From: Dictyostelium discoideum
Lineage: Eukaryota
Length of the DNA stretch: 64,000 bases
Assembly (NCBI GenBank): GCA_000004695.1
Contig: CM000154.2
Location: 1,376,001 to 1,440,000 of the forward strand
Direction: 5' to 3'
A program made the translations under genes and the position numbers. Of this stretch, positions 45,560-62,681 are shown in pieces (position 1 is the first letter of the stretch; each line of letters opens with the position of its first letter). The notes beneath the pieces were generated by a model. The model did no database searches, had not been told where the DNA came from, and was given only the letters and a program-made list of their open reading frames with translations.

Positions 45560-45792
45560 TTAATGATGTTGATAGTTATTTTAATTTTATAAATACTATT
45601 GATATTGGTGATAATGATGATACACTAATTAATAGTAGTGGTAATAAAGGTAAAACAAATATTCATTATAAAATTGGTGTTGTTGATTTGGATACAAAGA
45701 AAATGAATGCAATTCCAAAATATTATAAATTGGATCAAGATATTGTTAAACTTTATAAATCAAATATTAATACTATTAAATCATGTAAATAA
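44134..45792 (+). CDS. Inositol-pentakisphosphate 2-kinase (IPK1/IPPK), about 519 aa. Exons: join(44134..44247,44347..45792).
   Basis: Exon 1 (MTCNISKVDIGLPEYWVYKGEGAMNIVLSYNGPRNEKL) matches the IPK1 N-terminus (DWIYRGEGGANLVLAY). Exon 2 (DGLVLRVKK...) contains EIKPKWAFLP, the EIKPKW motif, then LDLFS, and C-terminal AKDCSIMISF and YKIGVVDLD...YYKLDQDI. These are all Arabidopsis IPK1 signature blocks. The only phase-compatible donor is the weaker GTGTGT at 44248. Confidence 0.7.
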
Positions 45793-46191
45793 AAAAAATT
45801 AAAATAAATAAAAAAAAAATAGAAAAAAAAGTGAAAATAAAAAAATAAAGAAAGAAATAAAATAAGAATAAAAATAAAATAAAAATAAAATTAAAATAAA
45901 AATTATTTCCAAAATTGGAATAAATTGCAATAAATTTAATAATAGTTTTTTATCATAATTATTTTTTTTATTTTCCCTCCAAAAATTTTAAAATTTGTTT
46001 TTTTTTTTTTTTTTCCTATTTTTTTTTTTTGTTTTTTAATTTTTTTGTTTTTATTTTTTTAATTTTAATTAATATCATTATATATATATTATTGTGGTAA
46101 ATTATTAACTAAAAGATCTTTTGTATTATTAAAATTTTCTTAAACATCTATTTTCAAAAATAATTATAATAATAAAAAAAAAAGAGAAAGG

Positions 46192-50430
<4,239 letters not shown>

Positions 50431-54507: not shown

Positions 54508-55752
54508 ATGACAGAGGTTGTTAAAATTGATATTGAATTTAAAGAAATAAATCAAGATAATAATAATAATAATGGTGATGAGGAGGAAGAGGATAGGGAG
54601 GGGGAGGAGGAAGAACCAATGGAAGAAGGTGAAACATCATATATAAATAAAGATCAAAGAAAAGCAATGAGTGTTGATTTATCATTAGTAGAGGATGCAA
54701 TTATAATATCAAATAGAATTAAAGAGAAATGTTTACAATTGGTAAAATTAAAATCATCAACATCACCAATACTATCATCATCACCATCATCAAATGTTGA
54801 TGGATCAATAACACCACCACCACCAATTAAACCGACTCTTTCACCAATTGCATCAGTATTAGCCGATTCAATAATGTCAGATTTCATAGAGATAAAAAAA
54901 GCAATTCATAAAACTCATATCGATTCAGAAACTAAAAAAACAAAAAAGAATGAAGAGAAAGAGAAATTTGAAAAACTGAATCTTGTTTATCAAAACTATC
55001 TATATGAAAAAAATCATTTAGAAAAAGAAATTAATTCATATAAAGATTTTAAGTAAGTTTACTAATTTTAATACTAATAATAATAATAATTAATATTAAT
55101 ATTAAAAAATATATACTTTTTTTTATTTATTTATTATTATTAGAATTGATGATCAAAAACCTAAATTATTATCATTAGAAGATTTTGAAAATAAAATTAA
55201 AGATTGTACATCAATTAAATTAGAATCAGTTGACACTGGTAATGAAGAATTAAATCAACATAATTTATTATTAAATAGATTAAATTTTGAATTATATGAA
55301 AGAAATAGGTATGTTTTTTTAAAAAATAAAATTATTTATTTATTTATTTTTTGTTCAACAATTAATTTTTTTATTTTTTTATCTTTTTTTTTTTTTTTAC
55401 AGAACAATTGAACAATTAAACAAGATACAAAGAGATAAAAGATTACATTTAGGATTAAATACAACTAAACAAGAGTTTTTATCATCATTATTAACAAATG
55501 TTACAGCATTGGCATCAAATATATCAAATATTCAACCAAGTTCAACTAGTAATTATGAACAAAGTATATTCAATTTACCAAAACCATTATATGTATTATA
55601 TTATTCAGTGAATTCATATTTACAATCCAATACAAAATCAACAATGAATTCTGATAACCTATTATTAAAAATTAAAGGTGATATGGATAAAGCAACAATT
55701 TTTAATTCTGATTTTATGATTTATTCACAACAAACTCAACATCAACACCATC

Positions 55753-55845
<93 letters not shown>

Positions 55846-57197
55846 CACAAGAAGAAATAACACTTAGAAATAATAACAATAGTGATTATCATCCATTATC
55901 AGTGATTTTAGATTATTTAATATTCGATACAAAGGTATCATTAGAGTTTACTTGGGATTGGTTTAGAAATATTGTACTTTGTAAACCAATAGATCATTCT
56001 GATTTTTATTTATATAATATATTTCCAAATGATACAGGTTTATTAGCATCATTTACAGGTGATGTTGAAATTCCCCCAATTTCTATCACCTCACCAACCC
56101 CTCTATCACCAAAACCAATTAATAATCAACAACCATCACAACAACAATCTCATCAAAATAACATCAATGTTAATATTATTGATTCATATAATAGTGGATT
56201 CGGTAGACCATATAAATGGACACAAGTTTTATGTGGATTATTACCATGTAAATTTATTCAATCCGATAGTAACCAATCTACATTTAATCAATGGTCAATC
56301 ACTGCTAATATTATGAACTCTGTCTTAAAGAGATTAGAGTGTAAAGTTTCTTTAGAAAAACAAATTAATATTCTAAAGAGACAAGCATTAAATTATAAAT
56401 CAACAAATAGTACCTATAGAGAAAGAGAAAAAGAAAAAGAAAGAGAAAAAGAAAAAGAAAAAGAAAAGGAAAAGGAAAAAGAAAAAGAAAAAGAAAAAGA
56501 TAGAGATAGAGAAAGAGATAGAGATAGGGATAGAGATAGGGATAGAGACAGAGATAGAGATAGGGATAGGGATAGAGAAAGGGAAAGAGAAAGAGAAAGA
56601 GAAAGAGAAAAAGAAAAAGAAAAAGAAAGAGAAAAAGAAAGAGAAAGAGAAAAAGAAAGAGATAGAGAAAGAGATAATAACAGTAGTAATAGTAATAGTA
56701 GTAGTACAATAACACCATTTTCAACAACAATTAAATTTATGTCAGCATTATCAGAAACAGATTCAAATAATCCAACAATTTATGGATCAGATTTAGTAAA
56801 ACTATTCTTCAAGAATAGTTTTGCTGATATTGAAGTGTTAATTATAATTCCATCAGACTATCCATTGGTTCCACCAATTTTTCAAATTGAAACGGAGAGA
56901 TCAAAAGAGAATTTTAATAGTTTGGATAAAGATTTAAATCATATTTTATTATTACAAAGGGATCAAATCAATTCATTAGAAACCTTTTTGAATTCTCAAT
57001 TCCTTTTTCAAAATCCTCATCTTCAAGGTTGTTATGATTTATTTGGTCATTTAGTTCAAAGATTAAAAGATATTTTAGTATTCCTCGCTACCGATCCAAA
57101 GATTGTAAAGTCAAAATGTCAAGGTCGTTTAACAAAAGGAAAATTAAGAACTTTACCCTTTTCTATTGATTCTCAATCCTTGTTATGGAAACATTAA
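54508..57197 (+). CDS. thoc5: THO complex subunit 5 (THOC5/FMIP) homologue, about 834 aa. Exons: join(54508..55052,55144..55308,55403..57197).
   Basis: Exon 1 ends ...EKLNLVYQNYLYEKNHLEKEINSYKDFK (compare THOC5 [29 protein letters not shown]). A GTAAGT donor (phase 2) and a TATTAG acceptor lead to exon 2, IDDQKPKLLSLEDFENKI...LLNRLNFELYERNR. A GTATGT donor and a TTTACAG acceptor lead to exon 3 with PKPLYVLYYSVNSY (THOC5 PPPLYVLFVQ) and C-terminal FQIE...KCQGRLTKGKLRTLPF. Exon 3 contains a poly-Q run and a roughly 85-aa RE/RD/KE repeat. Confidence 0.75.
56419..56675 (+). repeat. About 257 bp of pure purine (GA-rich) sequence inside thoc5 exon 3, encoding an (RE/KE/RD)n dipeptide repeat.
   Basis: agagaaagagaaaaagaaa...gatagagatagggatagagat...: there are no pyrimidines on the + strand for about 257 nt. 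In frame with the CDS. Confidence 0.85.

Positions 57198-58815: not shown

Positions 58816-62681
<3,866 letters not shown>

What the first reader, a model, noticed from the sequence alone, without database searches (positions are those of the whole stretch)
56419..56675. 257-bp pure-purine tract encoding an RE/RD/KE charge-alternating repeat inside THOC5
The THOC5 orthologue carries an insertion with no counterpart in the human THOC5 sequence as I remember it. About 85 residues of alternating Arg/Lys and Glu/Asp are encoded by a perfect polypurine-polypyrimidine mirror-like tract. Such tracts can form H-DNA triplexes and are replication and transcription obstacles. At protein level it resembles the RD/RE repeats of RNA-processing factors (U1-70K, NELF-E), which would fit an mRNA-export protein. 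Both the DNA structure and the functional module are worth noting.
Basis: partly seen in the sequence, partly recalled or inferred. Interest (0 to 1): 0.5.

Follow-up and report, generated by a model that had tools for sequence, protein, structure and literature searches.

The report
Alternating-charge repeat inserted in THOC5
A slime-mould-type mRNA-export gene (THOC5) carries a lineage-specific 258-bp repeat that encodes 86 strictly alternating positive and negative residues, like the mixed-charge domains of RNA-processing proteins; the DNA is purine-rich, not purely purine, mainly because of the organism's codon usage.

Summary
The repeat is real but was mis-described. It spans 56418-56675: 258 bp, 43 imperfect AGAGAA hexamers, 86 codons. 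It is 94.6% purine, not pure. Thirteen T and one C (Asp codons GAT/GAC) split it into two pure purine runs of 83 and 89 bp around a 73-bp RD block.

It lies in frame in exon 3 of a three-exon THOC5 orthologue (Pfam FmiP_Thoc5, E=2e-75), apparently in the variable linker between the two RWD domains. It is absent from four other dictyostelid THOC5s and from all 147 THOC5-family sequences examined.

The peptide is strictly [R/K][E/D] x43: net charge 0, kappa about 0.001, R:K 27:16. It meets the published sequence criteria for a mixed-charge domain. Every difference between units falls on the three hexamer positions where a change keeps the charge class. That argues for translation and for selection on alternation.

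The purine richness follows from default codon usage (AGA, AAA, GAA, GAT). Best reading: a slippage-born coding microsatellite kept as a disordered polyampholyte module. It possibly adds multivalent contacts with RD-rich RNA-processing proteins. A neutral spacer is nearly as likely. This is a new member of a known kind, of modest interest.

The parts
54508..55052 (+). THOC5 exon 1 (ATG at 54508; donor GTAAGT at 55053)
   Evidence: ORF plus splice-site reading. The spliced CDS of 2505 nt is in frame and gives 834 aa. The intron 55053-55143 is 93% AT.
55144..55308 (+). THOC5 exon 2 (acceptor TTAG at 55143; donor GTATGT at 55309)
   Evidence: The translation continues the Pfam FmiP_Thoc5 match.
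55403..57197 (+). THOC5 exon 3 including the stop codon. It covers the rest of the coiled coil, the region aligned to the N-terminal RWD domain, the linker with the repeat, and the region aligned to the C-terminal RWD domain.
   Evidence: The intron 55309-55402 is 91% AT.
56418..56675 (+). Imperfect hexanucleotide coding repeat: (AGAGAA)43-like, 258 bp. It encodes 86 strictly alternating [R/K][E/D] residues (aa 576-661; R27 K16 E29 D14; net charge 0).
   Evidence: TRF period 6, 42.8 copies. Codon and unit analysis. Absent from all orthologues in alignment A1.
56418..56500 (+). Pure purine run 1 (83 bp). It encodes the RE/KE-rich block, mostly KE.
56501..56573 (+). RD block. Purine purity is broken by a T or C at every 6th or 12th base (GAT/GAC Asp codons).
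56574..56662 (+). Pure purine run 2 (89 bp, the longest in the window). It encodes RE, then a mixed KE/RE block.
56426..56464 (.). Best perfect homopurine mirror repeat (17-nt arms, 5-nt spacer). This is the strongest in-silico H-DNA motif in the tract.
56584..56610 (.). Second perfect homopurine mirror repeat (13-nt arms, 1-nt spacer).
56676..56706 (+). Adjacent (AAT/AGT)n microsatellite encoding NNSSNSNSSS. It lies in the same linker and is also absent from orthologues.

Best explanation
The tract is a translated, lineage-specific coding microsatellite, most plausibly born by replication slippage of an AGAGAA-type hexamer. This organism is very rich in coding repeats.

It inserts an 86-residue mixed-charge domain, strictly alternating [R/K][E/D], into a variable linker of THOC5. 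By alignment to human THOC5, that linker lies between the two RWD domains, at the oligomerisation end of the THO complex.

The purine richness of the DNA and mRNA is a by-product. Arg, Lys and Glu are all-purine codons under this genome's default usage. Asp (GAT) supplies the only pyrimidines.

The domain most likely acts as a net-neutral polyampholyte, probably disordered. It would give each THO oligomer several weak, multivalent electrostatic contact sites for other RD/RE-rich RNA-processing proteins, helping the complex partition into speckle-like nuclear assemblies.

Shown here: the anatomy, the reading frame, the absence from orthologues, the codon-usage origin of the purine bias, and the charge-preserving substitution pattern. 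Inferred only: the slippage origin, disorder, condensate or speckle partitioning, and any fitness effect.
For: - Gene identity and position of the repeat.
- Insertion status: four dictyostelid orthologues and more distant THOC5s have a 10-35-residue variable linker here. None of 147 THOC5-family sequences has an alternating-charge run longer than 5, or a 60-residue window with a charged fraction of 0.7 or more.
- Translation and constraint: hexamer positions 1, 4 and 5 are invariant in 43/43 units. All 29 differences between adjacent units fall at positions 2, 3 and 6. Only 6 of the 18 possible single-base changes keep [R/K][E/D], and every observed variant belongs to those 6. There are no frameshifts and no stops.
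- Mixed-charge criteria of Greig et al. (bioRxiv 10.1101/771592), which are at least 60 aa, charged fraction at least 0.7 and charge ratio 1:1 +/- 0.3, are met: charged fraction 1.0 and 43:43.
- Alternation of R and D, rather than blocks, is what directed synthetic R-rich domains to speckles instead of nucleoli in HeLa cells (PMC9324279).
- D. discoideum SR-type proteins are reported to carry RDR/RDRS repeats, and DdNKAP forms nuclear puncta (PMC5173251).
- Mammalian THOC5 is found in nuclear speckles (PMC3899923).
- The codon usage of the repeat equals the genome default.
Against: - No expression, localisation or strain data could be reached.
- Coding repeats in D. discoideum are mostly not conserved with D. 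purpureum and have been argued to be largely junk (PMC3188802). This one is also absent from every orthologue available.
- 16 of the 43 basic residues are Lys. Lys-rich mixed-charge domains did not condense or enter speckles in HeLa cells.
- The longest uninterrupted Arg-dipeptide stretch, read directly off the peptide printed, is 19 dipeptides. Pure RD needed about 30 or more.
- Alternating R-rich peptides did not phase-separate on their own.
- Speckles are poorly defined in Dictyostelium.
- AlphaFold2 draws the first half of the repeat as a single helix with pLDDT 70-83, which does not fit a fully disordered chain.
Confidence: 0.5

Rival explanations
1. Neutral low-complexity filler. A slippage-generated repeat is tolerated because it sits in a surface linker between domains. 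It has no function of its own. Only grossly harmful changes (stops, frameshifts, hydrophobic or unbalanced charge) are purged.
For: - D. discoideum has an extreme density of coding simple repeats. Only about 5% are positionally conserved with D. purpureum, and genes with repeats evolve faster (PMC3188802).
- Slippage rates are high even in coding DNA (PMC7466956).
- The same linker also carries an (AAT/AGT)n repeat, and the gene carries (CAA)36.
- The repeat is absent from all orthologues available.
Against: The repeat is old enough to have accumulated at least 29 unit-to-unit differences, yet none breaks the charge alternation. That is more constraint than 'anything goes in a linker' predicts. 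Selection merely against sticky or unbalanced variants could still produce it.
Confidence: 0.35
2. Rigid single alpha-helix (ER/K-like) spacer that sets the distance between the two THOC5 RWD domains and so changes THO dimer or tetramer geometry.
For: AlphaFold2 models fragment residues 335-402 as one uninterrupted helix. That covers the KE block, the RD block and the RE block that follows. pLDDT is 70-83 over residues 341-380. Every i,i+3 pair has opposite charge.
Against: - No i,i+4 pair has opposite charge (0%). Known single alpha-helices rely on i,i+4 E-to-K/R salt bridges (my knowledge of the ER/K literature).
- pLDDT falls to 59 and below from residue 381 and under 50 from about 411. The whole model is weak (mean pLDDT 61, 8-sequence alignment).
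- AlphaFold tends to draw helices for charged repeats (my knowledge).
- Asp is a poor helix former.
- Purified RD repeats formed fibrils, and mGFP-RD50 formed droplets that matured into rods.
Confidence: 0.1
3. The nucleic acid is the selected feature. Either an H-DNA/triplex-forming purine-pyrimidine tract modulates transcription or replication, or a GA-rich multivalent mRNA segment is bound by Tra2/SR-like proteins for speckle capture and dosage feedback ('interstasis').
For: - Two pure purine runs of 83 and 89 bp carry perfect mirror repeats with arms up to 17 nt.
- The 258-nt RNA segment is completely unstructured, with a minimum free energy of 0.
- In human cells, R-rich mixed-charge domains are encoded by purine-rich multivalent mRNA that is captured in speckles through TRA2 (PMC12629991).
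Against: - The purine bias is fully explained by default codon usage.
- The variable hexamer positions follow protein logic, not DNA symmetry. A-to-T changes break purine purity 13 times and are tolerated, while purine-to-purine changes at positions 1, 4 and 5 never occur.
- The codon-bias signature behind interstasis is reported to be weak outside terrestrial vertebrates.
- The runs are A-rich and short compared with pathogenic GAA tracts (my knowledge).
Confidence: 0.1
4. The tract is not translated because it is an intron or an annotation artefact.
For: In-frame GT...AG pairs can be drawn formally around it, for example 56410-56667.
Against: - There is no GT inside the tract. The nearest one (GTACCT at 56410) does not resemble the two donors of this gene's own introns (GTAAGT, GTATGT).
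- Candidate introns would be 69-72% AT, against 91-93% for the two real introns of this gene. They have no T-rich 3' end.
- The other candidate donors (56339, 56341) would remove the conserved SLEKQINxLKKQ helix.
- The substitutions show codon-position periodicity.
Confidence: 0.03

Closest known systems
[quoted passage not shown]
   Same: Both are long runs of alternating basic and acidic dipeptides with near-zero net charge, found in nuclear RNA-processing proteins. phmmer aligns the repeat to Protein Red 334-397 (E=6e-11), NELF-E 209-269 (E=5e-5) and CPSF6 (E=3.5e-3). It meets the published length, charge-fraction and charge-ratio criteria. As in human R-MCDs, it is encoded by GA-rich codons.
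   Different: It is perfectly alternating over all 86 residues, with no Ser, Gly or Pro. It is mixed R/K (27:16), with a Lys-rich first block. It sits in a protein family that otherwise lacks such a domain. No localisation or condensation data exist. The similarity is compositional convergence, not homology.
Coding simple-sequence repeats of Dictyostelium discoideum (polyQ and polyN tracts and the like)
   Same: Tandem DNA repeat with a unit that is a multiple of 3. It uses default codons, lies in a variable region, is absent from orthologues, and sits next to other microsatellites in the same gene.
   Different: The unit is a hexanucleotide encoding a dipeptide, not a triplet homopolymer. It is imperfect: TRF reports 88% matches, and the 43 units fall into 27 blocks of identical adjacent units. 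The substitution pattern preserves charge, which suggests age and constraint rather than a recent pure expansion.
RDR/RDRS-type 'RS-like' domains of D. discoideum SR proteins such as DdNKAP (PMC5173251)
   Same: RD-containing repeats in a nuclear RNA-metabolism protein of, presumably, the same organism. DdNKAP shows punctate nuclear localisation.
   Different: Those domains are described as basic and contain Ser. This one is net-neutral, has no Ser, and is rich in E and K.
H-DNA-forming homopurine-homopyrimidine mirror repeats and GAA-TTC repeats
   Same: Two pure purine-pyrimidine runs of 83 and 89 bp with internal mirror symmetry.
   Different: The 258-bp tract as a whole is not homopurine: it has 14 interruptions. 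The runs are A-rich (GAAAAA and GAAAGA units). No structural evidence exists.
Human THOC5 (PDB 7APK and 7ZNK)
   Same: Orthologous architecture: a coiled coil followed by tandem RWD domains.
   Different: The human inter-domain segment (about residues 484-557) has no charged repeat. The Dictyostelium-type protein also replaces the acidic loop with polyQ.

Membership tests
THOC5 / FmiP (Pfam PF09766) | Significant match to the family profile above the curated cut-off | tested here: met
   254.8 bits against a cut-off of 29.4, E=2e-75, profile positions 1-360 of 362.
THOC5 / FmiP (Pfam PF09766) | Similarity in sequence and fold to experimentally solved THOC5, including the C-terminal RWD-like domain | tested here: met
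   phmmer hit to 7apk_E at E=8e-19. The Foldseek top 9 hits are all human THOC5 chains, E=4e-9, followed by weak, non-significant RWD/UBC-like folds (E 0.2 or more). The model is only of moderate confidence.
Mixed-charge domain (criteria of Greig et al.) | A window of at least 60 residues with a charged fraction of 0.7 or more | tested here: met
   The charged fraction is 1.0 over 86 residues. Criteria quoted.
Mixed-charge domain (criteria of Greig et al.) | Positive to negative charge ratio of 1:1 +/- 0.3 | tested here: met
   43 basic and 43 acidic residues.
Arginine-enriched MCD (speckle-competent subclass) | Arg rather than Lys as the dominant basic residue | tested here: inconclusive
   The R:K ratio is 27:16. 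The first 27 residues are mostly KE. The central stretch of 19 dipeptides (RD then RE), read off the peptide, is all Arg.
Arginine-enriched MCD (speckle-competent subclass) | Condensation in vitro, or localisation to speckles in vivo | not testable with these tools
   This needs GFP fusions or purified protein.
Single alpha-helix (ER/K) domain | Dense i,i+4 (and i,i+3) opposite-charge pairs that stabilise an isolated helix | tested here: not met
   Opposite-charge pairs are 0% at i,i+4 and 100% at i,i+3. AlphaFold2 nevertheless draws a helix, with pLDDT 70-83 over its first 40 residues.
H-DNA / triplex-forming mirror repeat | Uninterrupted homopurine-homopyrimidine strand asymmetry over the whole tract | tested here: not met
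   There are 14 pyrimidines in the 257 bp. Purity holds only for 56418-56500 and 56574-56662.
H-DNA / triplex-forming mirror repeat | Mirror symmetry with arms of at least 10 nt and a short spacer | tested here: met
   Arms of 17 nt with a 5-nt spacer and 13 nt with a 1-nt spacer lie inside the pure runs.
H-DNA / triplex-forming mirror repeat | Actual triplex formation under supercoiling | not testable with these tools
   This needs S1 nuclease or chemical probing.
Dictyostelium coding microsatellite | Tandem repeat with a unit that is a multiple of 3, in frame, with default codon usage | tested here: met
   Period 6, 42.8 copies. Codon usage matches the window's long ORFs.
Dictyostelium coding microsatellite | Length polymorphism among strains | not testable with these tools
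   No Dictyostelium genomes or proteins were reachable. The exact look-up, the clean-flank search and the representative search returned none.
Spliceosomal intron | GT-AG boundaries with a donor resembling those of this gene's own introns, and more than 85% AT | tested here: not met
   There is no GT in the tract. The nearest is GTACCT. The tract is 69-72% AT against 91-93% for the gene's real introns.

The most novel reading that the evidence does not exclude
THOC5 in the D. discoideum lineage acquired, by microsatellite expansion, a working mixed-charge module. With several copies per THO oligomer, it would tether the mRNA-export complex to RD-rich, speckle-like RNA-processing assemblies. 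Its GA-only mRNA segment might also take part in a purine-RNA capture feedback like vertebrate 'interstasis'. That would be a natural, datable example of a condensate-targeting domain being born from a simple DNA repeat.
Probability: 0.2. Interest if true: 0.55.

Novelty: new member of a known kind. Interest (0 to 1): 0.3.

Why it matters
If the domain is functional, it would show how a simple hexanucleotide expansion can hand a conserved machine (THO/TREX) a new multivalent interaction module. It would also offer a tractable system, a haploid and genetically accessible amoeba, for testing rules about mixed-charge domains that come from HeLa cells: alternation versus blocks, R versus K, and length thresholds. 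If it is not functional, it is one more example of how much low-complexity sequence an essential protein's linker can tolerate. The DNA-structure angle is weak, because the tract is not a perfect purine-pyrimidine mirror repeat.

Tried and rejected
- Exact look-up of the 834-aa product in the 15-billion-protein collection found nothing.
- The first homologue search, with low-complexity parts removed, returned only T. lacteum because repeat words saturated the candidate list.
- A second search with clean flanking sequence returned nothing.
- The exhaustive HMMER search seeded with the T. lacteum orthologue found P. violaceum, A. subglobosum and S. polycarpum, but no Dictyostelium sensu stricto sequence. 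Whether D. purpureum or closer species share the tract, and whether strains differ in copy number, could therefore not be tested.
- Literature searches found no paper on Dictyostelium THOC5. The original paper on D. discoideum spliceosomal genes is not in the library.
- The mutation-accumulation paper gave no rate specific to hexanucleotide repeats.
- 'Pure polypurine tract' is rejected.
- 'Purine bias needs a DNA-level explanation' is rejected.
- The intron reading is rejected.
- A classical ER/K single helix is rejected on charge spacing, although AlphaFold2 draws a helix.
- tRNA scan: none in the window.
- The third homologue search, using the repeat itself as query, was deliberately not spent. 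It would only have listed compositionally similar proteins.

Full report
**What is in the sequence.** The window is very AT-rich (78% A+T). It is full of polyQ and polyN ORFs and short AT-rich introns. That matches a Dictyostelium-type genome; this attribution is my inference, since no database hit names the organism.

The flagged tract is a tandem repeat of period 6 with 42.8 copies and a TRF score of 262. In codon register it runs 56418-56675: 258 bp, 43 hexamers and 86 codons.

The tract is not pure purine. The quoted 257 bp contain 13 T and 1 C, so 243/257 (94.6%) are purine. All are third positions of GAT/GAC codons, at 56501-56573 (every 6th or 12th base), 56663 and 56675.

The truly pure purine runs are 56418-56500 (83 bp) and 56574-56662 (89 bp). 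The other long purine runs in the window are intergenic poly(A)-like tracts.

Perfect homopurine mirror repeats exist only locally: arms of 17 nt with a 5-nt spacer at 56426-56464, and 13 nt with a 1-nt spacer at 56584-56610. No other alternating-charge run longer than 15 residues occurs in any frame of the window.

**The gene.** Three exons (54508-55052, 55144-55308, 55403-57197) are joined by GTAAGT...TTAG and GTATGT...ACAG introns of 91 and 94 bp (93% and 91% AT). They give an in-frame CDS of 2505 nt, encoding 834 aa.

- The product matches Pfam FmiP_Thoc5 almost end to end (E=2e-75).
- It matches human THOC5 chains of the THO-UAP56 structures (E=8e-19).
- An AlphaFold2 model of exon 3 has mean pLDDT 61, so it is only moderate. 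Its nine best PDB matches by Foldseek are all human THOC5 chains (E=4e-9). Weak, non-significant RWD/UBC-like folds follow.
- Human THOC5 consists of a coiled coil with THOC7 plus N- and C-terminal tandem-RWD domains. These mediate THO dimerisation and tetramerisation (PMC7744094).

**Where the repeat sits, and who has it.** In the alignment with seven other THOC5s, the repeat follows the conserved helix ...SLEKQINxLKKQ. It precedes the conserved ...KLxFKN...DYPxxPPxFQL strand-and-motif region. By alignment to human THOC5, I read this as the linker between the two RWD domains.

All other sequences have only 10-35 variable residues there. The human alignment jumps from residue 484 to 557 across query residues 553-707.

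The nearest orthologues retrievable all lack the repeat:

- Polysphondylium violaceum (KAF2070523.1)
- Tieghemostelium lacteum
- Acytostelium subglobosum
- Synstelium polycarpum

Among 147 THOC5-family sequences, none has an alternating-charge run longer than 5. None has a 60-residue window with a charged fraction of 0.7 or more.

So the insertion is lineage-specific, arising after the split from P. violaceum. I could not resolve it further. No Dictyostelium sensu stricto protein is reachable in the libraries.

**The peptide.** Residues 576-661 read REREKEKEREKEKEKEKEKEKEKEKEKDRDRERDRDRDRDRDRDRDRDRDRDREREREREREREKEKEKEREKEREREKERDRERD.

- Composition is R27, K16, E29 and D14, with net charge 0 and strict alternation throughout.
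- The charge-patterning parameter kappa is about 0.0008. Opposite-charge pairs are 100% at i,i+1 and i,i+3, and 0% at i,i+2 and i,i+4.
- The order of blocks is a KE-rich block, then an RD block, then an RE block, then mixed KE/RE.

**Is it translated, and is it constrained?** Hexamer positions 1, 4 and 5 (A, G, A) are invariant in 43/43 units. All variation lies elsewhere:

- position 2, G/A, which is R versus K
- position 3, A/G, which is synonymous
- position 6, A/T/C, which is E versus D or synonymous

The 29 differences between adjacent distinct units all fall on these three positions. Only 6 of the 18 possible single-base changes to AGAGAA preserve [R/K][E/D], and every variant seen belongs to those 6.

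These differences are not independent events, because slippage copies variants. Even with roughly ten independent events, the pattern is very unlikely for unconstrained DNA. Notably, purine-to-purine changes at positions 1, 4 and 5 never occur. A-to-T changes that break purine purity occur 13 times. The logic is protein logic, not DNA-symmetry logic.

The intron alternative fails. There is no GT in the tract. The nearest one (GTACCT, 56410) does not resemble the two donors of this gene's own introns. Formal in-frame GT...AG candidates are 69-72% AT, against 91-93% for the real introns. Some would also delete a conserved helix.

**Why the DNA is purine-rich.** The repeat uses AGA/AGG, AAA/AAG, GAA and GAT/GAC. 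Their proportions match the window's long ORFs: AGA 0.70, AAA 0.86, GAA 0.78, GAT 0.92. Any K/R/E-rich peptide in this genome is therefore encoded by purines, and Asp supplies the only pyrimidines. The purine tract is a consequence, not a cause.

As RNA, the segment cannot fold: its minimum free energy is 0. H-DNA potential is limited to the two runs of about 85 bp and is untested.

**Comparison with known systems.** Over the repeat, phmmer finds Protein Red (IK) 334-397, NELF-E 209-269 and CPSF6. These are classic RD/RE mixed-charge regions.

The tract meets the sequence criteria that Greig et al. used to define mixed-charge domains. Relevant findings from that literature:

- Pure RD repeats enter HeLa speckles and condense in a length-dependent way, from about 30 dipeptides. 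Replacing R with K abolishes this.
- Alternation rather than blockiness directs such domains to speckles instead of nucleoli. Alternating peptides do not phase-separate alone (PMC9324279).
- In human cells, R-rich mixed-charge domains are encoded by GA-rich multivalent mRNA that is captured in speckles. The codon signature fades outside terrestrial vertebrates (PMC12629991).
- D. discoideum SR-type proteins are reported to use RDR/RDRS motifs, and DdNKAP forms nuclear puncta. Speckles are poorly defined there (PMC5173251).
- Mammalian THOC5 localises to speckles without such a domain (PMC3899923).

**Most likely mechanism.** The tract is a slippage-born coding microsatellite. It is retained as a net-neutral polyampholyte module, probably disordered, at the oligomerisation end of THO.

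Human THO-UAP56 is a tetramer of seven-subunit monomers. If Dictyostelium THO assembles in the same way, which is untested, a tetramer would carry four copies. That is 172 charged dipeptides, 108 of them with Arg. This is enough valence for weak heterotypic contacts with other RD/RE-rich factors.

This functional step is inference. The mixed R/K content, the short pure-Arg stretch (19 dipeptides, read off the peptide) and the absence from all orthologues argue for caution. A neutral spacer is nearly as likely.

A rigid single-helix spacer is a minor rival. AlphaFold2 draws a 68-residue helix with pLDDT 70-83 over its first 40 residues. The charge spacing is wrong for ER/K helices.

**Verdict.**

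It is a lineage-specific insertion resembling a mixed-charge domain. The H-DNA emphasis is overstated.
- It is a new member of known kinds, namely a Dictyostelium coding microsatellite and a mixed-charge domain.
- Interest is modest.

Noticed in passing
window 55737-55844: A (CAA)36 tract in the same THOC5 gene encodes a polyQ/H stretch of about 40 residues. It sits where other THOC5s carry an acidic or charged loop (alignment A1, roughly columns 400-440).
   Followed up: partly
window 56676-56706: An (AAT/AGT)n microsatellite encoding NNSSNSNSSS lies immediately 3' of the charged repeat. It is also absent from orthologues, so this linker has accumulated two different simple repeats.
   Followed up: partly
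window 36701-36754: A 54-bp pure pyrimidine run, (GAAAGA)n-like on the minus strand, has perfect mirror arms of 17 nt. It would read KEKEKE.../KERERER... on the minus strand but appears to be non-coding. It is a DNA-level cousin of the THOC5 repeat.
   Followed up: no
window 11259-11343, 46174-46250, 38216-38273, 25513-25556: These long purine runs are essentially poly(A) with scattered G, lying outside the long ORFs. They show that long purine runs as such are common in this window.
   Followed up: partly
window 45130-45184: A 55-bp pure purine GAA/AAA run inside ORF 44437-45792 (+) encodes KKEEKEEKEEKGGKEEEE. It has a 16-nt perfect mirror repeat, and its charges are blocky rather than alternating.
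   Followed up: no
window 7101-7200 and 8702-8801: Two runs of exactly 100 N each, which are assembly gaps.
   Followed up: no
window 58816-60063 (-): The neighbouring ORF of 415 aa has a polyQ run of about 40 and a polyN run of about 60. This is typical of extreme homopolymer content.
   Followed up: no
protein P0004 (Synstelium polycarpum EP01133_P015675): In this 871-aa gene model, THOC5 similarity begins only around residue 524. The N-terminal region was not examined. It may be a fused or mis-predicted model in the source database.
   Followed up: no
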